Of a stretch of 64,000 nucleotides of DNA, positions 2,169 to 47,114 are shown piece by piece. This stretch comes from Escherichia coli (GTDB lineage: Bacteria; Pseudomonadota; Gammaproteobacteria; Enterobacterales; Enterobacteriaceae), in NCBI RefSeq assembly GCF_965641715.1, contig NZ_OZ282453.1; one strand, given 5' to 3'. The position numbers and the translations under genes were made by a program. Position 1 is the first letter of the stretch. Every line of letters starts with the position of its first letter. The notes below the pieces were generated by a model. That model was not told the origin of the DNA. It did not search any database and saw nothing but the letters and a program-made list of their open reading frames with translations.

Positions 2169-3068
2169 ATGAAAATCGATCTTAATCTTTTACCCATTTT
2201 TATCGCGGTAGCAGAAGAAAGTAATTTTAGTAAAGCCGCCGCACGACTGGGCGTTACCCGTTCAGCGGTCAGTCAGGGAATAAGACGCCTTGAAGATGCA
2301 TTCGGGACAATGCTTGTAATGCGGACCACGCGCTCAGTTAATTTGACGGAAGCGGGAGAACGGCTGCATAAATCGTTGTCATTACCTTTATCCGGTATTG
2401 AGACAGCGTTCGAAGAGATGGTTTCTGATCATGTACCACGTGGACTTCTCAGAATCGCAGTGACGTCAATAGCTGAAGAATTTCTTTCAGGTCCGCTAAT
2501 CGCTTCGTTTGCAGCAGCCAATCCAGCCGTTACGCTTGATATTGTTGTCACGGATGAGGAATTCGATATCGTGGCCGCAGGTTACGATGCTGGCGTAAGG
2601 CTCGGAGAGGTCATTGAAAAAGACATGATTGCTGTGCCCCTTACCGGCAGTCAGCGTGAAATGGTCGTTGCCTCTCCCTCCTATCTCGCAGCCAACAGCA
2701 CACCTGTTCATCCGCGTGAACTTGTGAATCATAAGTGTATCGGCTGGCGTCAGTCCCCGGAGGTTGCGCCTTATCGCTGGCCATTTGAAGAAAACGGGAG
2801 AGCTTTCGACCTTGCGATTGAACCGCAGATTACGACTAATGATCTGCGTCTGATGTTGAGGCTGGCTCTTGCCGGCGGAGGAATAACAATTGCCACTCAG
2901 GAAACTTTCAGGCCGTATATTGAAAGCGGTAAGCTTGTATCTCTGCTTGATGACTTTCTTCCACAATTTCCGGGCTTCTATCTGTATTTCCCACAGCGTC
3001 GCAATATTGCACCAAAGCTCCGCGCCCTGATTGACCACGTCAAGGAATGGCGGCAGCAATTGGCTTAA
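2169..3068 (+). CDS. LysR-type transcriptional regulator
   Basis: N-terminal HTH (FSKAAARLGVTRSAVSQGIRRLE) and LysR substrate-binding domain; divergent from the SDR gene. Confidence 0.85.
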   Translation: MKIDLNLLPIFIAVAEESNFSKAAARLGVTRSAVSQGIRRLEDAFGTMLVMRTTRSVNLTEAGERLHKSLSLPLSGIETAFEEMVSDHVPRGLLRIAVTSIAEEFLSGPLIASFAAANPAVTLDIVVTDEEFDIVAAGYDAGVRLGEVIEKDMIAVPLTGSQREMVVASPSYLAANSTPVHPRELVNHKCIGWRQSPEVAPYRWPFEENGRAFDLAIEPQITTNDLRLMLRLALAGGGITIATQETFRPYIESGKLVSLLDDFLPQFPGFYLYFPQRRNIAPKLRALIDHVKEWRQQLA

Positions 3069-3193
3069 ATGTCTGCACCTGCATTGCCTGATGTCAGAAC
3101 AGTATTTTGATTAATTGCCAGGGTTACAATGGCATAAATACGGCACAGGAGGAAACGTGGTGTATTTAAATATGGGGTAACTACTTGATTTAA

Positions 3194-3391: not shown

Positions 3392-4621
3392 TTATGCTGG
3401 CCAATCCCACTGCTGATAGGCAGAGAATAGGCGCGTGAGCTCAGCAGGCGCAAGAATATCAACAATATTAGCTCTGTAGCTATGCGATTTACCTAATGGA
3501 ACATTTTCGAAATGATTAGCTTGATAAGGATTAAAATCGTGAAGCTCACCTAATGTTGAGATATCGGTATTAATAGTTTTAAGCCAAGAAACAAGAATTA
3601 CTTTTGCCCCTGTTCTCTGTATGTAAGCTCTTGCCGATTCAAAACTATAGCCTCGAGTTGTTATATCATCTATAAGAAGTACTGTTTTACCAGGGCCTAA
3701 AGGTGGTTTTTTATAGGTAGTTCTAGGATTTCTGTGTGGCTGAGAATTAAGACAAATTGTATTAAGTTGATTGCAATGGTCAATTGCAACTCCCTCATTT
3801 CTTGCTTTTTGAGATTTTTTGGAAGTCGTATGCCTTAAAATAAGATCTGGGATATACGTCTTGCGAAAACATTTTCCAAATATTGAAATCGCTTCATCCA
3901 TGATATTATTCCCATATCCTTGCTTATGCCCTGGATAAACACTAACATAATTAATCATCTTATGAATGCCACTAAAATAGAGACTGGATATTAAGGCACT
4001 CGTCCAAAATTCAGGATGGCCTAATCCATGTTTAGCAGCAGCACGAGCATCTTCAGAGTAAAGAGTATACTCTTCCTTCATGGTGCTGAAAGGAGCAAGT
4101 GCATAGAAATTAAAATCACCATCGTGAATTTCATGACACCAAAGATGCTCTCTTAAACAGAAGGTATCTATAAATCTAGCAATATCTTTAGGGGTTGAAA
4201 ACTCGAAACCATAATCTGTTTTGTCTGCCCACCATGTAGCTCTTAAAAAGAGCAACTCACCATTAACTGCTGTTTGCATGTCGTTTATCGAAGCACCAAT
4301 GTACAAAGTTTCTGTACTTTCCCAACCCATCAAATCAAGGACATATTTTGTAGCATCCGCAGTTGGCTTCCCTGGAATGCTCTTATCTTTCGCTCGACAA
4401 AGATATTTAAATTCTCCCCAATGCTTTTGTAACACATCCTCTAAAGGGGTTCTTTCATCTCCGACAACCCAACCCCTGTTAGTGAATACAACAAACTCGA
4501 TCTTTTTAGTTCTGAAATATCTAATTAATTTATCTACCTCTGCAAAGATTTCGCTATCGATCTTTCCCTTAGGCACAAGAATATCTTCAACACTAAGAAT
4601 CACACCCTTAATTTTGCTCAT
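3392..4621 (-). CDS. satellite cargo: protein with N-terminal Rossmann-like (possibly degenerate HAD-like) domain and C-terminal type I phosphoribosyltransferase domain; ShosT-like candidate
   Basis: PRTase signature VLLIDDITTRG near C-terminus; N-terminal YIGASINDMQTAVNG resembles HAD motif IV; AT-rich; 10-nt gap to upstream gene. Confidence 0.55.
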   Translation of the reverse strand: MSKIKGVILSVEDILVPKGKIDSEIFAEVDKLIRYFRTKKIEFVVFTNRGWVVGDERTPLEDVLQKHWGEFKYLCRAKDKSIPGKPTADATKYVLDLMGWESTETLYIGASINDMQTAVNGELLFLRATWWADKTDYGFEFSTPKDIARFIDTFCLREHLWCHEIHDGDFNFYALAPFSTMKEEYTLYSEDARAAAKHGLGHPEFWTSALISSLYFSGIHKMINYVSVYPGHKQGYGNNIMDEAISIFGKCFRKTYIPDLILRHTTSKKSQKARNEGVAIDHCNQLNTICLNSQPHRNPRTTYKKPPLGPGKTVLLIDDITTRGYSFESARAYIQRTGAKVILVSWLKTINTDISTLGELHDFNPYQANHFENVPLGKSHSYRANIVDILAPAELTRLFSAYQQWDWPA

Positions 4622-4631
4622 TTCATCTTCC

Positions 4632-5696
4632 TTAGAGATCTAAGCTCTGCTGTATCGGCTGTGCTTTTAAATCATGATTATTATTCAAAATATAATTACT
4701 CATCTCATTCAATTCAAAAGGCATTAAAAAAGATAAAGAATTTCTATTTTCTTCAGCAAACTTCAATTCTGGTCTACTTTCATACGTAGTAGGAAGATAT
4801 GGACTCGCTATCTTTTTTGCATACTTAAAAGCATAATCAACAGTATGTGATGTTCCACTTTTAATATTCCATTCGACTGGTATTAGTGAATCACATAAAG
4901 CAGCCTGGATTCTGTTACGCCTTACAAAATTTTCTGCGCTATATGTTTGTTCAGGTAGATACTCGGTAACGATAGCCCCACCATTAGAAACTATTGCTCG
5001 ATATAACTCTTTAGAACCTTTCGGATACTCGACAAAAATCCCATTACCCAATACCGCAATAGTTGGAATGCCATATCTCAGCGATTCATAATGACAACAT
5101 TGATCTATTCCTGTCGCCAAACCACTGACTGTTGAAACATCTTTAGAATATAGAGAAGAAACAATCAGTTTTACTAGAAAAATACCATCATCCGTTGGCT
5201 TTCGTGTCCCCACAATTGCAACAGATTTCTTATTAAGAAGTTCATAATTACCATGAACAAAAATCCAAAATGGCGGATCGCTTATGTTCTTTAATGATTG
5301 AGGAAATGTAGCCTGATCATAAAAGGTGAGCACAATACCATTTTTATTGAGTTCACGAGCTCTCTCCAGTCCCTTAGACCAAAGGTCTTGTTGAAATGTT
5401 TCCCAAGATATATTTTTAGGCAAGGAAACTCTTAGATATCCTGCCAAGGCATCAGCTGTATTATCTTTTAATATATTCTTAAATCCAATTTTGGATTGAT
5501 AGATTTTGCGAAGCGTCCAGTAACCAACCCCCTTTAGACAAGTTAAGGCAAGAAACGCAATAATTTCATTTTTCCAAAACTCTCTAACTTCAGTGTAATC
5601 TTTATATTCCATTTTACGTTTGCCTTTTAGATTACAACCCGTACTCAACACAAAAAATTTAGAAAATTGTTGCCAAAAGCATATTATAAATAGCAT
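4632..5696 (-). CDS. satellite cargo: DprA/Smf-like (SLOG-type Rossmann) protein; ShosA-like candidate; probable start at MEYKDY (5612)
   Basis: DprA core motifs VAIVGTRKPT, GLATGID, TIAVLGNGI, YPKGSKELYRAI, FVRRNRIQAAL; AT-rich. Confidence 0.55.
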   Translation of the reverse strand: MLFIICFWQQFSKFFVLSTGCNLKGKRKMEYKDYTEVREFWKNEIIAFLALTCLKGVGYWTLRKIYQSKIGFKNILKDNTADALAGYLRVSLPKNISWETFQQDLWSKGLERARELNKNGIVLTFYDQATFPQSLKNISDPPFWIFVHGNYELLNKKSVAIVGTRKPTDDGIFLVKLIVSSLYSKDVSTVSGLATGIDQCCHYESLRYGIPTIAVLGNGIFVEYPKGSKELYRAIVSNGGAIVTEYLPEQTYSAENFVRRNRIQAALCDSLIPVEWNIKSGTSHTVDYAFKYAKKIASPYLPTTYESRPELKFAEENRNSLSFLMPFELNEMSNYILNNNHDLKAQPIQQSLDL

Positions 5697-5980
5697 CTTA
5701 CCGCAGATTTGTGAAGCAACAACATCCCTAGGAGAAACCTTAACCTAGCGGGACAACTTACTGACCAATCCTCAGCTAGCTCATTGAATTGCCCCCATAT
5801 CGCACAGCCCCGCACGCCTGCCCGCTTCGCTTAACAGACTGGTTTTCATGCACCTCATAAATCGTCTCAGAAGCCACCAAACAAGGGCTTTCTCGTCAAA
5901 AATGGTGCATAAGACTCATGCGTTTTCATGCGCCATAGACATGCACTCATGCGCTCTCAGGCCAGCCAGGGAAAAGGTGT

Positions 5981-6005
5981 TAAAAATCCCGGTACTCGAC
6001 CGGGA
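5981..6005 (-). terminator. Rho-independent terminator downstream of delta/ogr-like gene
   Basis: stem tcccggtactcgaccggga followed by U-run on the minus-strand transcript. Confidence 0.5.
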
Positions 6006-6027
6006 TTACGTAGGCGTTTTTTTCTAA

Positions 6028-6309
6028 TCAGACAGGAATCTGCTGACGGCTTGACAGTTTTGACGCGGAGCCATAGCGATTGAGCGTTTGCTGTTGTTTT
6101 ACCGGGGTTTGTGATTTGTCTGGTTCCTGTTCATTGCGCCGGGGTTTCATGATTATCTTATCCACACTCTCCAGTGCCGTAAATGTGCAGGAACATTCCA
6201 GATTCTGGCACTGATACCACGAGCGTTTAACTGACGGAGCTTCATAGGCTGCTGTTCTGGCGTGTGCAACTGTACCGCATTCCGGACATTTAAGTGCCAT
6301 TAATATCAC
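6028..6309 (-). CDS. Ogr/Delta-family zinc-finger late transcription activator
   Basis: CPECG...HARTA...YQCQNLECSCTF matches the Ogr/Delta C4 zinc-finger pattern. Confidence 0.8.
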   Translation of the reverse strand: MILMALKCPECGTVAHARTAAYEAPSVKRSWYQCQNLECSCTFTALESVDKIIMKPRRNEQEPDKSQTPVKQQQTLNRYGSASKLSSRQQIPV

Positions 6310-6857
6310 TCCTGTATATCGTTAATGTCATTCAGGCGTTGCTGAAAACGCAGATGTTGTGCCGGGGTGTAAGAGCCCTGGCAATCACGAATCATACTGG
6401 GGTCAGGCATCAAACCGGATTCATCCAGGATCTCACGATAATCCCCGGCAATTTCAGGCGGTGTTATTGCCAGCTGGCGAACCAGAGCACTGCGTAATAT
6501 ACGGGACGCAACGTCAACCCCTCCGCGCCCCTTCAGGAACGGAGCCAGTGCAGATGTCAGGGCTGCCCCATTCGCCTGCATAAAATTGCTGAGAGCGGCT
6601 TCTGTGCAGGCCTCCATCAGTAAATGCTGCGAGTAAATGCATTCGCGCGCAGCACAGTTAATTTGCCATTTCAGCACATCCAGACGTTCCCGCAGGAATT
6701 CGAGCTGTCGGGCATAATCTGCTGGTTTTTCTGTGGCAGCGAGGAGAGATGTTATCTGTTGTTCAACGGCTTTTCGGCTCTCACTATGTCTGGCCCACAG
6801 AATACGGGCATTCCGAAAACTGGTAAGTACCTGGTCAGGTGTGCCTCGGGCCGTCAT
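6306..6857 (-). CDS. psu: Psu-like (polarity suppression / capsid decoration) protein
   Basis: 183 aa, recalled similarity to P4 Psu (KWQ.N.AA, FMQ.NGAAL.SALAP, FTPAQ); translationally coupled to sid and delta. Confidence 0.55.
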   Translation of the reverse strand: MTARGTPDQVLTSFRNARILWARHSESRKAVEQQITSLLAATEKPADYARQLEFLRERLDVLKWQINCAARECIYSQHLLMEACTEAALSNFMQANGAALTSALAPFLKGRGGVDVASRILRSALVRQLAITPPEIAGDYREILDESGLMPDPSMIRDCQGSYTPAQHLRFQQRLNDINDIQE

Positions 6858-7597
6858 ACTGCTTTCTCCTTCTCAGCAAGTTCCTGACGAACCTTTATTT
6901 TATGCATAGCTGCTGGAGAGAGTTGATTACTGAAATCCAGACGCGCCGCATAATCCGGGGCAACTCCCGCCAGTTTAAACACCGGGTCCTGTTCAGGCAT
7001 CGCATCGTTAGCCAGAGCCGGTCTGGTGATATGTTTATGAATAAAGTCTTTCAGCACTGTGTCCGGGTCATTAACTGAATTCACCACACCCACAACGGCA
7101 CTGGCTTCCCGGCCCATTGTGGATTTAAGCAGGCTCAGCGTCTGAATAAGCGCTTTTCCATGCGACTGCATAAAATCCTCCCAGATTTGTTTTGCGCGAA
7201 TATCCACAAGAATGTTATGCGCGTGGATATACTTTCCGGCTAATTCCGCAGCTTTCTGCGGCAAAAGTGCATTTTCGCTTTCCTGAGCCGCCAGCAGCTC
7301 ATCAAAATCCTCAAGCGTTTCTCGTCCCAGCGCAATTTCCGTGCGCAGTTTTTTCATTTCCTTTGAGACCACGCCCTGACTTTCACGAAACAGCGTGCGC
7401 CACTCCTCATTCAGTGTATTCGTCGTGGATTCCATTTCAGCGCGACGCTGGCGGATTGTCGCAATATTATCCGCTGCCGCTTTCTGCTGACGACGTGCTT
7501 CAAGCCATGCGTTTCTGGCTGTGTTCATGGTTTCCAGTGCCCGCTGCGTTACAGCCGGAAAAGTGGAAAGGTTGTTATTCACTGCGGTGTTGTTCAT
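6854..7597 (-). CDS. sid: Sid-like capsid size-determination (external scaffold) protein
   Basis: 247 aa helical protein first in the late operon upstream of psu/delta, size and position as P4 Sid. Confidence 0.5.
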   Translation of the reverse strand: MNNTAVNNNLSTFPAVTQRALETMNTARNAWLEARRQQKAAADNIATIRQRRAEMESTTNTLNEEWRTLFRESQGVVSKEMKKLRTEIALGRETLEDFDELLAAQESENALLPQKAAELAGKYIHAHNILVDIRAKQIWEDFMQSHGKALIQTLSLLKSTMGREASAVVGVVNSVNDPDTVLKDFIHKHITRPALANDAMPEQDPVFKLAGVAPDYAARLDFSNQLSPAAMHKIKVRQELAEKEKAV

Positions 7598-7631
7598 GAC
7601 TTCTCCTGTCGGGTTGGTTCGTTACGTCAAT

Positions 7632-7687
7632 TGTGTCGTGGCTGACACAAGCACACTATCGGTGCTCAGTGTGTGGTGGCTGGCACA
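7632..7687 (-). promoter_or_regulatory. Two TGT-N12-ACA dyads (Ogr/Delta-type activator sites) upstream of sid
   Basis: TGT(7632-7634)-N12-ACA(7647-7649) and TGT(7670-7672)-N12-ACA(7685-7687), 35-90 bp upstream of sid start. Confidence 0.45.
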
Positions 7688-7775
7688 ACGGGCGCTTGCG
7701 GTTATTCAGACGTGGCTATGAAAGCCAGCCAGATAAAAATGCCCACTGTTTCAGTCTGCTTTATGTCCCTGATGC

Positions 7776-7964
7776 GGTGGAACAGGTGAAACATGTGTTA
7801 CAGCTTTGTTTTATAAATCATTTATATACACTGCACCGGTGGAACATCGCGGGTAACAAGGTGGAACAGCGGATTGGCTGGCGTTACATCTGTTCCACCT
7901 CACTATTTCAGAAGGTGGAACAGGTTCAGCCCCTGTAAAATACGGTTGTTCCACCTGTTTCACC
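7776..7964. repeat. Iteron cluster: 6 perfect GGTGGAACA/TGTTCCACC 9-mers plus 2 variants in both orientations (crr/ori-like)
   Basis: copies at 7776, 7838, 7860, 7891(inv), 7914, 7947(inv); variants at 7785 and 7956; directly downstream of primase gene. Confidence 0.55.
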
Positions 7965-7998
7965 TGTTACCCTTAATAAATAAGACTCACGCAAAGCC

Positions 7999-10671
7999 TT
8001 AACCCGGCACCTCGCTGTTGAAGACATAGAGCCTGCGGGGATTCATCTCTGGCGGGCGAATGGTTGTCTGGAGTTTGCCATCAGTGGAGGGCAGCAGGTA
8101 TCCACGATCTGCGCACAGACGCGCCACCTTGCGCGGGTCAAATCCCCTGCAGATTTCTTTCCAGCCGGACGGCATGACATAAAACGTAGTGACAGCTTCC
8201 GTGCCCTGCGCGGTACTGCCTTTCTCCACCCTGCGCCAGCCCACCATATTGGCGGGGCGGTTGCGCTCGTCATACCAGTCTGCAAAGCGGCTGTACTGAT
8301 TCGCGGTAAAGAAACTGCGAACCTGCTCCAGTGCGGCGATATCTTCCTGATTGGCGGTGTGCCCGCGCTCTTTCAGCCATGCGTTCAGGCAGACGCGGGT
8401 TGCCCGCAATGCTTCACCCTCAGGCCAGCCGGTGATACCCTGACGGGTTGCCAGTTCACCTGCCATCGCCACCAGTGCAAAGCGGTTCACAGCCCGGCCC
8501 ACCTGATTGCCTGCATCTTTCGGAGTCAGGGCGGCAGCATATTCCTTCATCAGCGATTTTGCCTGTGCCGTTAGTCCGTTAAGATCAGCGGTCAGTGCTT
8601 TCAGCCACTCCCGGAACGGCGAACCGTAGTAGCAGGACGTGGCCCATTCAAGATGCTCTGCCAGAGCCTTGCCGCTGTCGAAGCCGTGCAGCTCCTCAAA
8701 AACGCCAAACTTCCCGGAATCGCTGGGGATCTGGATCATCCTGACTTCCATCCCGGCAAAAGTACGCTCACCGGCCTTTGCCGCATGTTCGGTCAGAGAT
8801 AACTCGCCAGTTGAAAAGAACAACAGGCGCCACTGCTTACGGGTACGCAGTTCACCGTCCGTACCGGCACGACCCTTGCCCTGACCGTTTGCCAGCATGT
8901 AGGCGATATTGCCTGCCTCGCGTCCGTCAACTTCCCGGATCTCATCAAGCATCATGGCGGCATCGTTGCGGCGGCTGGCACATCCCTCCAGCGCGTTGCC
9001 GGTGGCCCGCCATGTCTGCCAGTAGTCAGGCCCGCCGCAGACGGAGGTTGCCGCTTTCATGGTGGTGGTCTTACCGTCTGTCGATTCCCCTTTGAGGTGG
9101 TAGCCGCCGCCGTCCATACCAACCAGCCGTAACAGTGGTGCAGCAAAGGCCAGGCTGACAGCAAATGCCACGCGGGAGTTGCCGGTACAGTAGCGGGATA
9201 CGTTCTCCCGCCATTCCTCTGTTGTGCCCGACACGCGGAAATCACGCCCCTGCACGGAAGTGGTCTGGAGAATGACACCCTCTGCACCTTCACCGCTGAC
9301 CTCATCCTGCAGGACGTAAACCTGACCATGCCAGCCAGTACGGCTGACGCAGGTCACGCGACGTTCCGGTTTACACAGTGAGATATATTCCATCAGGCGT
9401 GCGCGTGCCTCACCGGTGGTGCTGATATAAGACAGCCCGTTAACAAGCAGTACCCGGCGCAGTTCCTCACCACTGCCGCTCAGCATTTCCATCGGCATCG
9501 CCCAGCGGCGACGCTCACCCCACGTATCTTCCCATTCCAGCAGTCGTCCGAAGTTACCGCCATCGGCATCGCAGGTGATTGCCGTCACGCGCAGCGGGCT
9601 GCATATTTTGACGTTCTGGATCTCCGTCTCACCGTTGCGCTGTACCTGCTTTTCATACCAGAGATATTCCTGGGTAAGACGGAACCCGTGCGGCAGTTGC
9701 GTGCGGCCTTCCCCGCACAGTACCAGACCGTTGCGAAAGGCTTCACGGGCACGGGTAATACCGTGCTCCCGATGAAAGTCATTCCAGTCAGCCTTAATCT
9801 CTCCTGGTGGCAGCGTCATCCAGCCGCCAACAGCTTTTGCCGCCCGTTCAGCAAAGGCTCTGCCGGGATTCTCCCCCCCGTCCTGAAAATCGTTATCACC
9901 GGCGATGATAATTTTTACCTCAGGCCAGCGTGCCCGCAGCGACTGCGCCACATTGGGCAGGTTGCCCGCAGATATGGCAGCCACTACGCATCCGGCAGTG
10001 AGCTGGCTTACCGTCAGCGCCGTAGCGTAACCTTCGGTAATCACCACCTGTACCGGTGGTTCAGACGGTAACGGGCTGAGCGACACAAACGCGCCTTTCA
10101 TCGTGCTGCCGGGCAGTATGCTTTTTTCACCCGTCGGGGCGATAAGCTGTGCACCGGTCACGGCTCCGGTGTTGGTCGTGAGTGGTAACAGCAGGGAACC
10201 AGCAGGAAAATCCTTACCGCTGATATGCTGCACGCTTCCGGTCAGAGAGGCCGGGTATCCGGCGAACCCTTTTCCTGCCAGATAGGCACTTTCTCCCGTG
10301 TGGCTCTCTTTCATCAGCGTCGCCACGGTAAGGCTCATGTCGCGTTTAGGGGCTTTTTGTCTGGCAGGCTTAACAGGCAGTTCCTGCACATCCGGCACAT
10401 TAAGCACCTGCGCCACCTGCTGCGCAGCCTTTCTGACGTTGTAGCCGGTTACGAGCTTAACCAGATCCAGACCGTCACCATTGCCACACTGGCTGCAGAT
10501 CCACGTCCCGCGCCCGTCAAGGTCATCGAGGCGAAAACGATCCTTGCCCCCACATTTCGGGCAGGGACCGTGCCTGCCGTTTTCAGGTACATCAATACGC
10601 AGCATATGCAGAATAACGGGCCATTTCCCCCGCGCGGCGGCTGAAATCTGCGTAACCGTCTGTATTGTCAT
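7999..10671 (-). CDS. P4 alpha-like primase/helicase (zinc finger + toprim + D5-type NTPase)
   Basis: N-terminal CPKCGG...CSQCG, Walker A GESTDGKTT, 890 aa. Confidence 0.8.
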   Translation of the reverse strand: MTIQTVTQISAAARGKWPVILHMLRIDVPENGRHGPCPKCGGKDRFRLDDLDGRGTWICSQCGNGDGLDLVKLVTGYNVRKAAQQVAQVLNVPDVQELPVKPARQKAPKRDMSLTVATLMKESHTGESAYLAGKGFAGYPASLTGSVQHISGKDFPAGSLLLPLTTNTGAVTGAQLIAPTGEKSILPGSTMKGAFVSLSPLPSEPPVQVVITEGYATALTVSQLTAGCVVAAISAGNLPNVAQSLRARWPEVKIIIAGDNDFQDGGENPGRAFAERAAKAVGGWMTLPPGEIKADWNDFHREHGITRAREAFRNGLVLCGEGRTQLPHGFRLTQEYLWYEKQVQRNGETEIQNVKICSPLRVTAITCDADGGNFGRLLEWEDTWGERRRWAMPMEMLSGSGEELRRVLLVNGLSYISTTGEARARLMEYISLCKPERRVTCVSRTGWHGQVYVLQDEVSGEGAEGVILQTTSVQGRDFRVSGTTEEWRENVSRYCTGNSRVAFAVSLAFAAPLLRLVGMDGGGYHLKGESTDGKTTTMKAATSVCGGPDYWQTWRATGNALEGCASRRNDAAMMLDEIREVDGREAGNIAYMLANGQGKGRAGTDGELRTRKQWRLLFFSTGELSLTEHAAKAGERTFAGMEVRMIQIPSDSGKFGVFEELHGFDSGKALAEHLEWATSCYYGSPFREWLKALTADLNGLTAQAKSLMKEYAAALTPKDAGNQVGRAVNRFALVAMAGELATRQGITGWPEGEALRATRVCLNAWLKERGHTANQEDIAALEQVRSFFTANQYSRFADWYDERNRPANMVGWRRVEKGSTAQGTEAVTTFYVMPSGWKEICRGFDPRKVARLCADRGYLLPSTDGKLQTTIRPPEMNPRRLYVFNSEVPG

Positions 10672-11051
10672 ACTTCCCCCTGATACAACGTCACACCAGT
10701 ACTGCAGAAGTCATCAAAGGTCGCCGGAAGCGTGCGGTACATCTCCGCCATTACTTCACAGCCGCGCGCGGTCAGTACCGGCGGCGCGGTCAGCAGTGAC
10801 GGCTCCAGCATGTCAGTCAGCAGTGCCAGCGCGGCAGCGGCGCCCTGTGCTTCGCCGTACTCGTTAATCAGTGCGCACTCGATATGCAGCGCAATGGCCA
10901 TTTCAATACGCTCCACCGTCAGGCTGTGCGGACCATACTGATCACTGCCAGTTTCGTTCAGCATTTTCTGCCGCCATGCTGAAGCAATAGCCCGCCGGTA
11001 AAGCGCGGTTGTCATTTCTGCCGGGAAAATGGAAACCTGCGGCTGGTTCAT
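10668..11051 (-). CDS. hypothetical satellite protein
   Basis: ORF translationally coupled (4-nt overlap) to primase gene. Confidence 0.4.
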   Translation of the reverse strand: MNQPQVSIFPAEMTTALYRRAIASAWRQKMLNETGSDQYGPHSLTVERIEMAIALHIECALINEYGEAQGAAAALALLTDMLEPSLLTAPPVLTARGCEVMAEMYRTLPATFDDFCSTGVTLYQGEV

Positions 11052-12229: not shown

Positions 12230-12520
12230 TTAGGGAGTAGGTGATAATCTATTCCCTTTATTAATTGCTCTTGCCTTATTTCTCATCCCCTCAAACTGTT
12301 GACCTGAGTTTTCTTCAAACCCATCTCGCCACTTATAATAATCAGCAGCGCGCCATCGGGACATCCGACCTATTTTTATAGGTTTTGGAAAGCGATTCAG
12401 AGAAATCAATCGATAAATCCATTTGTCACTTAATAAACAATCGGAAGTAATAAACTTCATATCGATCAGAGAATCCATTGAAGGTCGTTGCAAAGTAGTA
12501 TTATCATGTTTAGATAACAT
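12230..12520 (-). CDS. alpA: AlpA-family phage transcriptional regulator
   Basis: KFITSDCLLSDKWIYRLISLNRFPKPIKIGRMSRWRAADYYKWRDGF matches AlpA-type HTH proteins. Confidence 0.7.
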   Translation of the reverse strand: MLSKHDNTTLQRPSMDSLIDMKFITSDCLLSDKWIYRLISLNRFPKPIKIGRMSRWRAADYYKWRDGFEENSGQQFEGMRNKARAINKGNRLSPTP

Positions 12521-12645: not shown

Positions 12646-13470
12646 TTAGTTAAACTTAATGTTTTTCATGCAACTACGTAGCAAGCTAACAACAGTATCA
12701 TAGCTCAAAGGTGGTTCTCCGGTCTTAGGCCAGAACTCACTGGCATGTTGAAAAAGATAATCAGCTATCGCTGCTGGACTCTCTCTTCTTAGCCTCATAT
12801 CACGATGATAGAGCGAAATAATAGCCATGAGTATTTCAGTTCGAGGAACAGCATGTTTTTGTTTTTGCGCCTCAGATTGTGATTTATATTTATTGGCGTT
12901 TTTTATCCGTTTTTGTTCGCATAAGACTATATCAATGAATTTTTGAATCTGTACCTTTGTAATCCACAAAACCTCAAAAAGATAATAATTTTCTTTTTCA
13001 TCATAATTTACATAAAGAATTACCTTACAATTTATATTAGGCGTACCCGCCAGTAGAAAATGAATAGGCCAGGAATCCGGTTGCCCCTCATGCTTAACTA
13101 ACAGATCTTTATATTCATAATCAACAGCCCATAAACCGGATATAAAGCATCGAATAAAACCATTTTTATCAATTAAATTATTTTCATCAGGGATTCTTAT
13201 AGAGCTTAAGTCTGACAACATAATATTGCCATTTCTATCTCGTGGTAAATATTTCAGATTAGATAAGAACTCATCCAGTTGACCATCAATCTTCAAACCA
13301 CATGAAACATCATACTCATCATCATGGAATTCCATGCATAGCTCTACATCTCGTTCTCTGGCAAACCAGAGTATATCCTTTTCACTACAACCAATTTTTT
13401 CTGAAGCTTCATCCAACTGGTAGTAATCTCTGAGCAGAGAATCAGTATTATTAATTTTTAAAATATTCAT
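12646..13470 (-). CDS. hypothetical AT-rich protein of unknown function, translationally coupled to integrase
   Basis: 274 aa; ATGA start/stop overlap with int; low GC relative to flanks; no motif recognised. Confidence 0.4.
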   Translation of the reverse strand: MNILKINNTDSLLRDYYQLDEASEKIGCSEKDILWFARERDVELCMEFHDDEYDVSCGLKIDGQLDEFLSNLKYLPRDRNGNIMLSDLSSIRIPDENNLIDKNGFIRCFISGLWAVDYEYKDLLVKHEGQPDSWPIHFLLAGTPNINCKVILYVNYDEKENYYLFEVLWITKVQIQKFIDIVLCEQKRIKNANKYKSQSEAQKQKHAVPRTEILMAIISLYHRDMRLRRESPAAIADYLFQHASEFWPKTGEPPLSYDTVVSLLRSCMKNIKFN

Positions 13471-14726
13471 TTATGAGTACCAATTAGCTCAGATAAATAA
13501 TTAGCATACCATTGCATCATTTCTCTTCTCCCTTCGAGATATTGGGCATGGTTATAAATTCCACGAATAGAGTTTTTGTCCGAATGAGCAAGCTGGGTTT
13601 CAATCCAAGCGCTGTTAAATCCTTTCTCATGTAGAATTGTACTCATCGTATGCCTGAAACCATGTCCCGTAACACGCCCTGCATATCCAATACGTTTAAA
13701 CACCTGATTGATGCTTGCTTCACTCATAAATTTGCTAGGATCGTTGCGTCCAGGGAACATCAGCGGGTAGTTCCCAGTTAGTTCTTTCAAACTTTTGAGA
13801 TGGGATAATGCTTGTTTTGGTAACGGGACAATATGGCTCCTACGCATTTTCATACGTTCTTTTGGGATCTCCCACACCGCATTATCAAAATCCACCTCTC
13901 GCCACTCACCTGCTCGTAGTTCTCCAGTTCGTAGACCTGTCAGGATAAGTAAATGCGCCCCCAACAATACAATTGGACTTCCTGAATAAGAATTAAGGGC
14001 ATTAAAGAACTCCGGTAGTTCGTTGGCTTTGAGGAATGGATAGTGGACTGCTTCATGTCCTTGCATCGCACTGGCAAGATCCGGTGCCGGATTGTAGATT
14101 GCCCTACCCGTTACGATGGCATAGCGAAAAACTTCACCGCATCGCTGACGGACTTTCTTCGCTTTCTCCATAGCGCCTCGAGCTTCTATCAACCTCAGAA
14201 CTTCAAGCAGTTCAAGGGGCTGAATATCAGCTATAGGTCTGTGCCCAATATGCGGAAAAATGTCTTTCTCAAATGCCTCAATGATGTCGGAAGCATAGCC
14301 CTCAGACCATTTGGATGATTTCATTTTGTGCCACTCTAACGCCACTTCTCTGAATGGGTTAAGTGTCTCAATCGCTGCGTTTAAAGCCTGCTTTTTGGCT
14401 TTTTTGACTTCGCCGGGATCTTCACCTGCTGCGAGTAGTTTCTTTGCGTCTTCTCGTTTTTGTCTGGCATCAGCAAGTGTGACTGTTGGATAAACACCAA
14501 AGGACAATCGTTTCTCTTTACCAGCAAAACGGTATTTCATACGCCAGTAACGCGAGCCATTAGGTTCGACCTGAAGGTATAGGCCACCTCCATCAAACAG
14601 CTTATAGCTCTTCTCTTTTCCTTTCGCAGCTTCAACCTTGCGGGCATTCAGCATCATTGGGGGCACATTTCCTAGACCGAACAGAACATGCCCCTGATTG
14701 TGCCCCCAACCGCGTGTTGATTTCAA
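13467..14726 (-). CDS. int: P4-type tyrosine integrase (probable start at MLNARKV, 14654)
   Basis: KEKSYKLFDGGGLYLQVEPNGSRYWRMKYRFAGKEK N-terminus and C-terminal HGFRHT...Y catalytic region; adjacent to tRNA-Thr. Confidence 0.9.
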   Translation of the reverse strand: MKSTRGWGHNQGHVLFGLGNVPPMMLNARKVEAAKGKEKSYKLFDGGGLYLQVEPNGSRYWRMKYRFAGKEKRLSFGVYPTVTLADARQKREDAKKLLAAGEDPGEVKKAKKQALNAAIETLNPFREVALEWHKMKSSKWSEGYASDIIEAFEKDIFPHIGHRPIADIQPLELLEVLRLIEARGAMEKAKKVRQRCGEVFRYAIVTGRAIYNPAPDLASAMQGHEAVHYPFLKANELPEFFNALNSYSGSPIVLLGAHLLILTGLRTGELRAGEWREVDFDNAVWEIPKERMKMRRSHIVPLPKQALSHLKSLKELTGNYPLMFPGRNDPSKFMSEASINQVFKRIGYAGRVTGHGFRHTMSTILHEKGFNSAWIETQLAHSDKNSIRGIYNHAQYLEGRREMMQWYANYLSELIGTHK

Positions 14727-14820: not shown

Positions 14821-14838
14821 ATGGTGCCGATAATAGGA
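14821..14838. repeat. attL core: 18 bp at thrW 3' end, repeated at 3194..3211
   Basis: exact 18-mer match. Confidence 0.6.
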
Positions 14839-14897
14839 GTCGAACCTACGACCTTCGCATTACGAATGCGCTGCTCTACCAACTGAGCTATATCGGC
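14822..14897 (-). tRNA. thrW: tRNA-Thr (anticodon CGU)
   Basis: reverse complement reads GCCGATATAGCTCAGTTGGTAGAGCAGCGCATTCGTAATGCGAAGGTCGTAGGTTCGACTCCTATTATCGGCACCA. Confidence 0.9.
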
Positions 14898-17380: not shown

Positions 17381-17568
17381 GATTCTCTGCCATTCAATTT
17401 TAGGAAAAATGATATCAAACGAACGTTTTAGCAGGACTGTCGTCGGTTGCCAACCATCTGCGAGCAAAGCATGGTGTTTTGTTGCGCGGGATCAGCAAGC
17501 CTAGCGGCAGTTGTTTACGCTTTTATTACAGATTTAATAAATTACCACATTTTAAGAATATTATTAAT

Positions 17569-17588
17569 CTGTAATATATCTTTAACAA
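17569..17588 (+). promoter_or_regulatory. Pho box (PhoB binding site) of phoE promoter
   Basis: ctgtaatatatctttaacaa ~80-100 bp upstream of phoE start. Confidence 0.5.
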
Positions 17589-44728: not shown

Positions 44729-47114
44729 AATGCCCCTCCGGCTCAATATAAAAAGCATCCGAAAATAACAATTGGACTTTAATTTCCTGTGCTGTATCTG
44801 TATAAAATATTTCTGTATATCCCTCTCTGTCTGTTTCACCACGCGTCTGTGTGCCATCCTCAAAAAAGGCAATATACTGCGTCTCTGAATACGGTATCCC
44901 GTCATCGTCCGTAAAATGGAACTGGAGGGTATATTTTTCAGGATCATCTTCATCGTCACCGCCATCACCTCCTCCGTCACTCCCTGCGGGATTGCCACTA
45001 TCCTCTCCGGAGTCATCACTGCCATCATCACTGCTCTCATCCTCCGGAGCCTCCAGCACCGCCGGCTGCATCGTCCCCACCGGTGTCCCCGCACTGCCCC
45101 CACCGTTCAGGTTTATCTTCGGCCCGGCAATATCCACTCCGCCCGGCTGAATGACGATAAACGAGCCACCCACCTTCAGGCTTATCCGGCTGCTGCTCTC
45201 CAGCACGATATCCCCGTCCACTTTTATCCCCAGCGCGCCACTCACCTTCTCCGCCAGGTCCCCCTTCACCTCCAGGCTGTGCTTCCCCTCCACCAGGCTG
45301 ATGTGGTTACCCGTCGTCTTATGCTCCTGCTTCCCTTTCACCGTCACCCTACGGTCATTTCTGACGTACAGACCGTCATCGTGACTCACGCTCACCGTCC
45401 GGTCATTTGTCACCTTCAGCGTCTGGTCGTTACGTACCGTTATGCTCCGGTCGTTCGCCACCGTGATACTCTGGTCGTGGCCTCCTTCTTTTCTGGTCCC
45501 GACCTCAACCGTCTGCCCCTTCACCACCGTTATCTTCTGGTCGTTACCAATGGTCTCCGTATGGTCATGTTTCACATCCGTTGTCCGGTCGTTGAGCACC
45601 TCCGTATCCATGTTCTTCTGCGCATGGATATACACCTGCTCATTACTGGTGGCGTCCTCAAAGCGCAACTCGTTAAATCCGCTTCCTTTATAGGTCTTCG
45701 ACCGTATCGTCATCTGCGTCTTCGTCCCCGGCAGGCTCCCCGGCGAACGGTTGTCCTCATGGTACGTCCGGCCCATGACCAGCGGCTGGTCCGGGTCTCC
45801 GTTCAGGAAGTCAACAATCACCTCCTGACCCACCCGCGGTATCGCCAGGTTACCAAACCCCGGCCCCGCCCACGCCTGTGATACCCGCACCCAGCATGAA
45901 CTCGCCTCCGTCATCCCGTGATAACGGTCCCAGTGGAACTTCACCCGTACCCGGCCATGTTCGTCGCAGAATATCTCCTCACCCTTCGGCCCGGTGACAA
46001 TGGCGCTCTGCGGCCCGTCCACCTTCGGTTTGCTTTGCAGCCGTGGACGCCACGTCCGGTCCGCCGGTATCACCTCTAACTGATTTCCCAGCGTGGTTCC
46101 TCTCCCCTGGCTGCCGTGCAGCGCCTGCGGCTGGCTTCCTGACAGTATGCTCTGTACCACCTGCCATTCACGGTTCAGCATCTTCTGCGGATGCCCCGTC
46201 AGCGTAAACCGCGTTCCCGGCCACAGCCTCGGCGAATTACTCTGCCCTGTGGCCTTTTCCGCATCACTGCGCAGGCTCTCCATCTGGTACAGCGTGAAAT
46301 CCTTGCCGTGCTGCTCATCCTTGAACCTTCCCGGATAATCAAATATCTCGTACTGCGCCAGCTGTCCGTTCAGGTTCTCACCCTGCTGCTCATACATCCC
46401 CGGCCAGTCCGGCACCTTAAACGTGTAATCCTGGCTCTGCACCGACGACGGGCGGACATGCGCCTCATAACGGAACATACTGAGACACTCCGTCTCCGCT
46501 CCTGCCGATGTGTCCGGGTTAAACGGAAGCTCTCCCGCCTGTGACAGCCCCGCCACATCGTCGCACAGCGTCAGCTTCTGCTCCGGACTGTCCGCCGCAA
46601 ACCGCTCAAAGAAGAAAATTCCTTCTTCCGCCCACAGCCGAGCCAGAAACGCCAGGTCGCTCTCCCCGTACTGGACACAGAACTCCCGCGCCGGATGGTC
46701 TTCATAAAACAGCGGAGTCCACTCCGTGACGCCGTTCTCGTTCAGTAACGTGGCCGATATCGTCCGGATATCCTGCTGCTGAAAAATACGAAAGTTCTGC
46801 CGCAGCCCGCACCGCCATAACGGCGGCTCAATACGCAGGTGATAACGCATCTGCCAGCCGTTGTTCTCCTGCATGCCAAAGCCCGCCACCACGCCGGTGA
46901 CATAACGCTGCGCCACCGCGCCCTGCCAGATGGCCAGCGTCGCCTTCTTCTCCAGCAGCATCTCCGCCGTCTGCATAAAAGAGTCGCTGGCAACATCCAC
47001 ACTCATCACAAACGGATAAGACTGGTTCTGGATTAACCTGAAATTCACCACTGCAAAGGTGTCCGGCTCCTGGCCGTCAATCTCCAGCGTAAAGCGCAGA
47101 CCGTTTAAGGACAT
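44715..47114 (-). CDS. vgrG: T6SS spike protein VgrG with acidic linker and C-terminal extension domain
   Basis: 799 aa; repeated octapeptide region; Asp/Gly-rich linker then ~70-aa C-terminal domain. Confidence 0.9.
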   Translation of the reverse strand: MSLNGLRFTLEIDGQEPDTFAVVNFRLIQNQSYPFVMSVDVASDSFMQTAEMLLEKKATLAIWQGAVAQRYVTGVVAGFGMQENNGWQMRYHLRIEPPLWRCGLRQNFRIFQQQDIRTISATLLNENGVTEWTPLFYEDHPAREFCVQYGESDLAFLARLWAEEGIFFFERFAADSPEQKLTLCDDVAGLSQAGELPFNPDTSAGAETECLSMFRYEAHVRPSSVQSQDYTFKVPDWPGMYEQQGENLNGQLAQYEIFDYPGRFKDEQHGKDFTLYQMESLRSDAEKATGQSNSPRLWPGTRFTLTGHPQKMLNREWQVVQSILSGSQPQALHGSQGRGTTLGNQLEVIPADRTWRPRLQSKPKVDGPQSAIVTGPKGEEIFCDEHGRVRVKFHWDRYHGMTEASSCWVRVSQAWAGPGFGNLAIPRVGQEVIVDFLNGDPDQPLVMGRTYHEDNRSPGSLPGTKTQMTIRSKTYKGSGFNELRFEDATSNEQVYIHAQKNMDTEVLNDRTTDVKHDHTETIGNDQKITVVKGQTVEVGTRKEGGHDQSITVANDRSITVRNDQTLKVTNDRTVSVSHDDGLYVRNDRRVTVKGKQEHKTTGNHISLVEGKHSLEVKGDLAEKVSGALGIKVDGDIVLESSSRISLKVGGSFIVIQPGGVDIAGPKINLNGGGSAGTPVGTMQPAVLEAPEDESSDDGSDDSGEDSGNPAGSDGGGDGGDDEDDPEKYTLQFHFTDDDGIPYSETQYIAFFEDGTQTRGETDREGYTEIFYTDTAQEIKVQLLFSDAFYIEPEGHYGRE
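45650..47114. repeat. ~1.5 kb direct repeat, vgrG 5' region copy 1
   Basis: near-identical to 51535..52995 (1 mismatch in the ~130 bp compared by eye); boundaries approximate. Confidence 0.7.

What the first reader, a model, noticed from the sequence alone, without database searches (positions are those of the whole stretch)
7632..7687. Two TGT-N12-ACA dyads upstream of sid: predicted Delta/Ogr-activated late promoter
P2/P4 late promoters are activated through a TGT-N12-ACA element centred near -55. The second dyad here, centred ~81 bp upstream of the sid ATG, fits that geometry; the first is closer to the start and may be a second site or coincidental.
Basis: partly seen in the sequence, partly recalled or inferred. 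Interest (0 to 1): 0.35.

Follow-up and report, generated by a model that had tools for sequence, protein, structure and literature searches.

The report
P4-type sid late promoter, two sites
The two small DNA palindromes are real and sit exactly where the classic satellite phage P4 has them in front of its capsid-shrinking gene sid, so this is an ordinary copy of a known helper-activated "late" promoter in a P4-like satellite integrated in an E. coli chromosome.

Summary
Observation confirmed. Exact TGT-N12-ACA dyads lie at 7632-7649 and 7670-7687, upstream of a minus-strand sid-psu-delta operon (sid ATG at 7597). The motif alone is not rare in the window (16 found, 14.4 expected). Its placement is what matters. 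The dyad centres are 43.5 and 81.5 bp from the sid ATG, the same distances as the two dyads upstream of sid in phage P4.

All 19 other sid loci I fetched, from Enterobacter, Pantoea, Citrobacter, Mixta, Kosakonia, Serratia and metagenomes, also carry two exact dyads. They lie 38 bp apart (39 in one locus). TGT and ACA are invariant while the 12-bp interiors drift.

An invariant CACAAT follows the proximal dyad, there is no -35 element, and an A lies 7 bp downstream. This predicts a start near 7623, which puts the dyads at about -55.5 and -17.5.

The operon encodes its own activator, a 93-aa single-domain Ogr/Delta zinc-finger protein.

The "first" dyad is not coincidental: it is the conserved promoter-proximal second site. 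Activator dependence and the start site remain inferred, not measured. This is a new member of a known kind and of low interest.

The parts
7670..7687 (-). Distal TGT-N12-ACA dyad (minus-strand reading TGTGCCAGCCACCACACA). Centre 7678.5, which is 81.5 bp upstream of the sid ATG and about -55.5 from the predicted start. Inferred activating Ogr/Delta site.
   Evidence: In the 38-column block anchored on the distal dyad, TGT and ACA are the only invariant columns across 15 non-redundant lineages. The offset matches the P4 dyad at 9493-9510.
7632..7649 (-). Proximal TGT-N12-ACA dyad (minus-strand reading TGTGTCAGCCACGACACA, inside a perfect 7-bp inverted repeat TTGTGTC/GACACAA). Centre 7640.5, which is 43.5 bp from the ATG and about -17.5 from the predicted start. 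It overlaps the -10 element.
   Evidence: Present in 21 of 21 loci, 38 bp downstream of the distal dyad (39 in one). Arm symmetry extends to positions 4-6 in 8-10 of 15 lineages. The offset matches the P4 dyad at 9531-9548.
7630..7635 (-). Predicted -10 hexamer CACAAT (4 of 6 matches to TATAAT, with A at position 2 and T at position 6).
   Evidence: CACAATT is invariant in all 15 lineages including P4. No acceptable -35 lies 16-18 bp upstream (TAGTGT, 2 of 6; read). The sigma-70 scan finds no promoter in the sid-alpha gap.
7623..7623 (-). Predicted transcription start (A), 7 nt downstream of the -10 hexamer, giving a 26-nt leader.
   Evidence: Inference from the -10 position and from the -55 geometry of annotated P2 late promoters. 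Not measured.
7603..7607 (-). Shine-Dalgarno AGGAG, 5 nt before the sid ATG.
   Evidence: Sequence. Conserved as AGGA/GGAG in the relatives.
6854..7597 (-). sid orthologue (247 aa), first gene of the late operon.
6306..6857 (-). psu orthologue (183 aa). Its start overlaps the sid stop.
   Evidence: Pfam Psu E 3e-44. BLASTP to P4 Psu E 2e-15.
6028..6309 (-). delta (93 aa): a single-domain Ogr/Delta zinc-finger activator with C8-X2-C11-X22-C34-X4-C39. It is the last gene of the operon, so the promoter would drive its own activator.
   Evidence: Pfam Ogr_Delta E 7e-16. It aligns to both halves of the 166-aa P4 Delta and to P2 Ogr (45% over 55 aa).
5980..6007 (-). Intrinsic terminator after delta: a 9-bp G+C-rich stem, 5-nt loop and U-run. 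It marks the end of the transcription unit.
   Evidence: RNA fold -13.8 kcal/mol, z -2.29.

Best explanation
The interval 7598-7700 is the orthologue of the phage P4 late promoter Psid, in a P4-like satellite integrated at tRNA-Thr(CGT) next to proA. On its own the promoter is weak, with a -10-like CACAAT and no -35. An Ogr/Delta-family zinc-finger activator binds the distal TGT-N12-ACA dyad centred near -55 and recruits RNA polymerase through the alpha subunit. The activator is either the satellite's own 93-aa Delta or the Ogr of an infecting or induced P2-like helper. Transcription would start near 7623, run through sid, psu and delta, and end at the terminator at 5980-6007. Because delta is in the operon, activation would reinforce itself. 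The proximal dyad centred near -17.5 overlaps the core promoter. It is a second, conserved site of the same type, most likely also bound by the activator, and its role (fine-tuning or auto-limitation) is unresolved. Shown here: the motifs, their geometry, their conservation, the gene content and the presence of the activator gene. Inferred: the start site, activator binding, the alpha-subunit contact and the role of the second site.
For: (1) There are exact dyads at 7632-7649 and 7670-7687. (2) P4 has two dyads at 9493-9510 and 9531-9548, centred 81.5 and 43.5 bp from sid ATG 9583, the same distances as in the window. (3) All 21 sid upstream regions carry two exact dyads. These are the window, P4, 12 loci from a species-representative genome scan and 7 contigs encoding divergent Sid proteins, with Sid identity to the window of 23-89%. 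The start-to-start spacing is 38 bp in 20 and 39 bp in one. (4) In alignments of 15 non-redundant lineages, the distal block's only invariant columns are TGT and ACA. In the proximal block, TGT and CACAATT are invariant. In close relatives the substitutions fall in the N12 interiors. (5) No sigma-70-like promoter is detected in the gap, which fits activator dependence. (6) The activator gene is present: Ogr_Delta zinc finger, homologous to P4 Delta and P2 Ogr. (7) The P2 RefSeq record annotates activator sites centred 55-58 bp upstream of the annotated late starts. PMC3152322 states that Ogr binds inverted repeats centred at about -55 and needs the RNA polymerase alpha subunit. PMC3931495 gives TGT-N12-ACA as the P2 late promoter consensus. 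(8) A terminator follows delta.
Against: No transcription start, expression or binding data exist for this element, and none could be obtained here. The predicted start rests on a 4-of-6 -10 hexamer and on analogy. The -55.5 figure is partly circular, because P4's own start is not annotated in either GenBank record and I recall it only from the older literature. The ACA half of the proximal dyad lies inside the -10 hexamer, so part of its invariance may reflect the core promoter rather than activator binding. The primase gene lies directly upstream in the same orientation, and no terminator is predicted between it and sid. Read-through could therefore contribute activator-independent sid expression. 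No P2-like helper is present in the window.
Confidence: 0.85

Rival explanations
1. Only the distal dyad is an activator site. The proximal 'dyad' is conserved because it is the core promoter (the -10 CACAAT plus spacer contacts), and its match to TGT-N12-ACA says nothing about Delta binding.
For: The ACA half (7632-7634) lies inside the invariant CACAATT that I read as the -10 element. The four P2 late promoters, which work with one upstream site, have no exact TGT-N12-ACA near -18.
Against: The TGT half at about -26 to -24 is invariant in 21 of 21 loci, although no sigma-70 element is expected there. The symmetry often extends beyond 3 bp: TGTGCC/GGCACA in many lineages and TTGTGTC/GACACAA in the window. 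This shows a matched change in both arms, as expected for a symmetric binder. The fixed 38-bp spacing to the distal site holds across lineages. From memory, P4 Delta footprints a second site at -18 in Psid (Julien & Calendar 1995; paper not held).
Confidence: 0.2
2. The dyads are chance matches to a short degenerate motif and have no function.
For: The motif has only 6 specified bases and occurs at the chance rate in the window (16 found, 14.4 expected). Matches inside coding sequence, such as 6271-6288 and 10358-10375, look accidental.
Against: Two exact matches occur at the same offsets in 21 of 21 sid promoters from 15 lineages whose N12 interiors and flanks have diverged. Only 3 other matches occur in the roughly 8,000 remaining positions of those upstream regions.
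Confidence: 0.01
3. The dyads are sites for a host regulator such as CRP (TGTGA-N6-TCACA), not for Ogr/Delta.
For: In the window both sites begin TGTG and end CACA, which resembles CRP half-sites.
Against: The spacing is wrong. CRP cores are TGT-N10-ACA and these are N12 in every locus. Positions 4-5 are not conserved as GA across the family (TGTCT, TGTAT, TGTTC, TGTCC). The element encodes a protein of the family known to read TGT-N12-ACA.
Confidence: 0.03
4. The palindromes act as RNA or DNA hairpins, for example an attenuator or terminator for read-through from the upstream primase gene.
For: The primase gene is co-oriented with sid, and no terminator is predicted between them. The window's proximal site could form a 7-bp stem.
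Against: The folding energy of 7625-7692 is no better than that of shuffles (z -0.98). In most lineages only 3-6 bp are complementary around a loop of 6-12 nt, and no U-run follows. In P4-type relatives the left-arm genes called next to sid (AlpA) face away from it, yet the dyads are retained.
Confidence: 0.02

Closest known systems
Phage P4 late promoter Psid (NC_001609, dyads 9493-9510 and 9531-9548, upstream of sid at 9583)
   Same: Two exact TGT-N12-ACA dyads 38 bp apart, centred 81.5 and 43.5 bp from the sid ATG. CACAAT directly follows the proximal dyad. The replication-origin iterons lie immediately upstream, and the promoter drives sid, psu and delta.
   Different: The gene order is sid-psu-delta, not sid-delta-psu. 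Delta is a 93-aa single domain rather than the 166-aa tandem-domain protein. The window's two dyads are near-identical to each other (16/18), while P4's differ. The upstream neighbour is a co-oriented DUF927-type primase gene, whereas in P4 the left operon is divergent from sid. Outside the conserved islands the sequences are not alignable by BLASTN.
Phage P2 late promoters PP, PO, PV, PF (Ogr-dependent)
   Same: An upstream element of partial dyad symmetry beginning TTGT, centred 55-58 bp upstream of the annotated start. No -35 element. An activator of the same zinc-finger family (PMC3931495, PMC3152322).
   Different: The P2 sites in the RefSeq record are degenerate, and none is an exact TGT-N12-ACA. 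No second dyad lies near -18. They drive structural and lysis operons of the helper, not satellite hijack genes.
Sid promoters of other P4-like satellites (loci L002-L020)
   Same: The same two-dyad, 38-bp architecture, -10 motif and leader length. The closest (L002-L005, L009, L020, and E. coli H28/H29) share the whole primase-iteron-promoter arrangement.
   Different: More distant members (L014-L019) have the P4 arrangement, with AlpA divergent from sid. The three whose primase gene lies within the locus (L015, L016, L019) have the D5_N/Pox_D5 type. The distal-site interiors differ widely.

Membership tests
Ogr/Delta-dependent late promoter of P2/P4-type elements | Element of dyad symmetry with consensus TGT-N12-ACA upstream of the promoter | tested here: met
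   There are exact matches at 7670-7687 and 7632-7649. The consensus is as stated in PMC3931495.
Ogr/Delta-dependent late promoter of P2/P4-type elements | [quoted passage not shown] | tested here: inconclusive
   No start is measured. With the conserved CACAAT as -10 and a start at 7623, the centre is -55.5. The distance to the sid ATG equals that in P4. The geometry is consistent but rests on a predicted start.
Ogr/Delta-dependent late promoter of P2/P4-type elements | Weak core promoter: a recognisable -10 and no -35 consensus | tested here: met
   CACAAT matches 4 of 6. The best hexamer 17 bp upstream is TAGTGT, 2 of 6. The sigma-70 scan finds nothing in 7598-7998.
Ogr/Delta-dependent late promoter of P2/P4-type elements | A cognate activator with the C-X2-C-X22-C-X4-C zinc finger, encoded by the element or its helper | tested here: met
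   The 93-aa ORF at 6028-6309 matches Pfam Ogr_Delta at E 7e-16. The cysteine spacing was read from the translation. It is homologous to P4 Delta and P2 Ogr.
Ogr/Delta-dependent late promoter of P2/P4-type elements | Transcription depends on the activator and on the RNA polymerase alpha C-terminal domain (blocked by rpoA109) | not testable with these tools
   This needs reporter, footprint or in vitro transcription experiments.
P4 Psid specifically (orthology) | Located directly upstream of sid as the first gene of the sid/psu/delta operon, downstream of the origin iterons | tested here: met
P4 Psid specifically (orthology) | A second dyad, promoter-proximal (about -18), 38 bp from the first | tested here: met
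   The centres are 38 bp apart in the window, in P4 and in 18 of the 19 other loci. That Delta binds the P4 proximal site is recalled from Julien & Calendar 1995 and was not verified here.
P4-like satellite (context of the promoter) | Core genes: integrase, alpA, primase (alpha), sid, psu, delta, and a cos site | tested here: inconclusive
   Integrase, a sub-threshold AlpA-like match (20.6 bits against a cut-off of 21), sid, psu and delta are present. The primase shares only its N-terminal 310 aa with P4 alpha, and the rest is DUF927. No epsilon-type (Phage_ASH) ORF turned up among the ORFs scanned. No match to the P2/P4 19-nt cos end with up to 3 mismatches.
CRP-binding site | TGTGA-N6-TCACA (TGT and ACA separated by 10 bp) | tested here: not met
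   The separation is 12 bp in all 21 loci, and positions 4-5 are not conserved.

The most novel reading that the evidence does not exclude
The promoter-proximal dyad (about -17.5) is a universal, strongly constrained feature of sid promoters in P4-like satellites. It is kept at a fixed 38-bp distance from the -55 site whether Delta is a single-domain 90-96-aa protein or the tandem-domain P4 protein, and it has no exact counterpart in the helper P2's late promoters. It could therefore be a satellite-specific control device, for example Delta occupying the core promoter to cap its own positive feedback, or to distinguish the satellite's activator from the helper's. It would then be more than a redundant second site.
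Probability: 0.3. Interest if true: 0.35.

Novelty: new member of a known kind. Interest (0 to 1): 0.15.

Why it matters
It matters mainly for annotation. It marks the switch through which a helper phage, or the satellite's own Delta, would turn on capsid hijacking (sid, psu) in a P4-like satellite found at 90% identity or more in 332 of 5,426 complete E. coli genomes. This satellite also carries a Shosta anti-phage system. The comparison adds one small general point. The two-site, 38-bp architecture of Psid is conserved across all sampled P4-like lineages, so it can serve as a sequence signature for locating late promoters in these satellites.

Tried and rejected
BLASTN (distant mode) and TBLASTN of the region and of Sid against the phage collection found nothing, although P4 is in that collection. 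The divergence is too great, so P4 was fetched by accession instead.

Neither P4 GenBank record annotates Psid or its start.

The original papers were not held: Julien & Calendar 1995/1996, Van Bokkelen et al. 1991, Christie & Calendar 2016 and Christie & Dokland 2012. Full-text searches for Psid, the sid promoter and the -18 site found nothing relevant. The -18 footprint and the P4 start are therefore cited from memory only.

A search for a second late promoter (a PLL equivalent) in the satellite's other non-coding gaps found no exact dyad and only unconvincing 1-mismatch hits.

The RNA-hairpin reading was tested by folding and rejected. The CRP reading was rejected on spacing.

TGT-N12-ACA is also the PpsR/CrtJ site of purple bacteria, which is irrelevant in an enterobacterial satellite.

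A search for the P2/P4 cohesive-end 19-mer found nothing. A TBLASTX run of P4 against the window was spoiled because the query file held many loci. Only its P2 part is used.

Full report
**What is in the sequence**

The window between about 3.4 and 14.9 kb is a P4-like satellite. It is integrated at a tRNA-Thr(CGT) gene (14822-14897) next to proA and proB. All its genes are on the minus strand:
- An integrase (13467-14726).
- A sub-threshold AlpA-like gene (12230-12520; 20.6 bits against a cut-off of 21).
- A DUF5375 gene (10668-11051).
- An 890-aa primase (7999-10671).
- Three overlapping genes at 6854-7597, 6306-6857 and 6028-6309.

The first of these three is a Sid orthologue. It matches phrog_6165 at E 7e-93 over its full length and P4 Sid by BLASTP at E 7e-13. 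The second is Psu (Pfam E 3e-44; P4 Psu E 2e-15).

The third is a 93-aa Ogr/Delta zinc-finger protein (Pfam E 7e-16). Its translation shows C8-X2-C11-X22-C34-X4-C39. It aligns to each half of the 166-aa P4 Delta and to P2 Ogr.

The order sid-psu-delta, rather than P4's sid-delta-psu, is the commonest variant among P4-like satellites, seen in about 20% (PMC8628076).

**The observation**

Exact TGT-N12-ACA matches lie at 7632-7649 and 7670-7687.

The bare motif is not enriched. The window has 16 matches against 14.4 +/- 3.9 expected, so the motif count carries no weight by itself. However, these are the only exact matches in the satellite's non-coding DNA. The two 18-mers are also 16/18 identical direct repeats 38 bp apart.

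**Comparison with P4**

P4 (NC_001609) has only five exact matches in its genome. Two of them, 9493-9510 and 9531-9548, lie just upstream of sid (ATG 9583). Their centres are 81.5 and 43.5 bp from the ATG, the same distances as in the window.

The regions are too diverged for BLASTN. From the distal dyad to the ATG they align without gaps, and the conserved islands are the dyad half-sites and CACAATT.

**Comparison across the family**

I collected 19 further sid loci. Twelve came from a scan of one genome per species with a Sid alignment. Seven came from contigs encoding divergent Sid proteins. Sid identity to the window runs from 89% down to about 40%, and is 23% for P4.

Every one of the 21 upstream regions has two exact TGT-N12-ACA dyads. 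The spacing is 38 bp in 20 loci and 39 bp in one. The centres lie 41.5-45.5 and 79.5-83.5 bp from the ATG. Only three other matches occur anywhere in the 400 bp upstream of these genes. Two of those three look like origin iterons.

I then took 15 non-redundant lineages and anchored them on the dyads.
- In the 38-column distal block, the only invariant columns are T, G, T and A, C, A.
- In the proximal block, the invariant columns are TGT, one C in the interior, CACAATT and one G in the leader.

Among close relatives, including two E. coli copies at 93-95% identity, substitutions fall in the N12 interiors and spare the half-sites.

This is the footprint pattern of a protein-binding dyad. The region does not fold better than shuffled sequence as RNA (z -0.98).

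**Promoter geometry**

The invariant CACAAT (7635-7630) is a 4-of-6 -10 hexamer with the critical A2 and T6. No usable -35 lies upstream: the best hexamer is TAGTGT, 2 of 6. The sigma-70 scan finds no promoter in the sid-primase gap.

A start at the A of 7623 gives a 26-nt leader with an AGGAG ribosome-binding site. It places the dyads at about -55.5 and -17.5.

The P2 RefSeq record annotates its late transcription starts and activator-binding sites. The site centres lie 55-58 bp upstream of the starts. PMC3152322 states that Ogr binds inverted repeats centred at about -55 and acts through the RNA polymerase alpha subunit. PMC3931495 gives TGT-N12-ACA as the consensus.

A strong terminator follows delta at 5980-6007, which closes the transcription unit.

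**Mechanism**

The best reading is that this is the orthologue of P4 Psid. Ogr, from an incoming or induced P2-like helper, or the satellite's own Delta binds the -55 dyad. It recruits RNA polymerase to a promoter that lacks a -35 element and switches on sid, psu and delta. Delta then feeds back positively.

The steps shown here are the sequence elements, their geometry, their conservation and the gene content. The start site, the binding and the alpha-subunit contact are inferred by homology.

**The second dyad**

It is present in all 21 loci, and its symmetry often extends to 6-7 bp. Many lineages have TGTGCC/GGCACA and the window has TTGTGTC/GACACAA, which is a matched change in both arms.

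From memory, Julien & Calendar (J Bacteriol 1995) footprinted P4 Delta on a second site centred at -18 in Psid. I could not retrieve that paper.

One caveat applies. The ACA half lies inside the -10 hexamer, so part of the conservation may be core-promoter constraint. I give about 0.2 to the reading that the proximal element is core promoter only.

The two-site layout is kept in elements with a single-domain Delta of 90-96 aa. It is therefore not a peculiarity of P4's tandem-domain protein.

**Differences from P4**

The primase shares only its N-terminal Zn-ribbon/Toprim part with P4 alpha (38% over 320 aa). The rest is DUF927 rather than D5_N/Pox_D5.

The primase gene lies directly upstream of sid in the same orientation. 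It is separated from sid only by about ten GGTGGAACA iterons (7776-7965) and no predicted terminator. Read-through into sid is therefore possible.

No PLL-like second late promoter was found. No P2-like helper is in the window, since the only P2 homology is ogr to delta.

**Verdict**

The undecided dyad resolves to a conserved second site. This is a new member of a well-known kind of promoter and is of low interest.

The one modestly new point is the family-wide conservation of the -17.5 site at a fixed 38-bp spacing. That makes its function worth a simple mutational test.

Noticed in passing
window 3392-5696 (minus strand): Two low-G+C ORFs downstream of delta are a Shosta anti-phage system: ShosT (409 aa, PADLOC E 3e-94) and ShosA (354 aa, DprA-like, E 3e-90). 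They sit in the position of the known P4 defence hotspot.
   Followed up: partly
window 7776-7965: About ten copies of GGTGGAACA/TGTTCCACC in both orientations flank an A+T-rich core (about 7800-7830). They resemble P4 ori type 1 repeats (GGTGAACA) with one extra base. As in P4, the origin-like iterons lie directly upstream of the sid promoter.
   Followed up: partly
window 7999-10671: The primase is chimeric relative to P4 alpha. The N-terminal 310 aa (Zn ribbon plus Toprim) are 38% identical, and the remainder is DUF927 instead of D5_N/Pox_D5. The gene is co-oriented with sid, and no terminator is predicted in between, so read-through into the late operon is possible.
   Followed up: partly
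window 7704-7717: A third, partial copy of the dyad's central GTGGCT motif (ATTCAGACGTGGCT) lies 36 bp beyond the distal dyad but lacks TGT and ACA. The corresponding region in relatives holds a conserved CTGGCTnGCCAG palindrome, which in P4-type loci is followed by a T-run just before the distal dyad.
   Followed up: partly
window 5800-5840 and whole window: No match to the P2/P4 19-nt cohesive end (GGCGAGGCGGGGAAAGCAC) with up to 3 mismatches. A G-rich stretch (GGCAGGCGTGCGGGGCTGTGCG) lies between delta and the Shosta genes, where cos would be expected. The helper and cos specificity of this satellite may differ from P2/P4.
   Followed up: partly
window 46440-46680 and 52320-52560: Two near-identical stretches of at least 240 bp lie about 5.9 kb apart. 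Each contains the same TGT-N12-ACA hit (TGTGACAGCCCCGCCACA). Their nature was not examined, and they are unrelated to the satellite.
   Followed up: no
window 6271-6288: A TGT-N12-ACA match lies inside the delta coding sequence, where it overlaps the zinc-finger cysteine codons. It is most likely coincidental.
   Followed up: no
L021 (P2, NC_001895) 3057-3087, 10239-10266, 17555-17583: None of P2's own annotated late activator sites is an exact TGT-N12-ACA. They read TGT-N12-CCA or TGT-N11-ACA, so the strict pattern under-detects helper late promoters while matching the satellite promoters perfectly.
   Followed up: partly
L020 4968-6747; L019 4580-5389: In L020, the same sid-psu-delta module is followed directly by P2-type tail genes (Phage_TAC_7, gpE, tape measure). 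In L019, a third Psu-family ORF (269 aa) follows delta.
   Followed up: no
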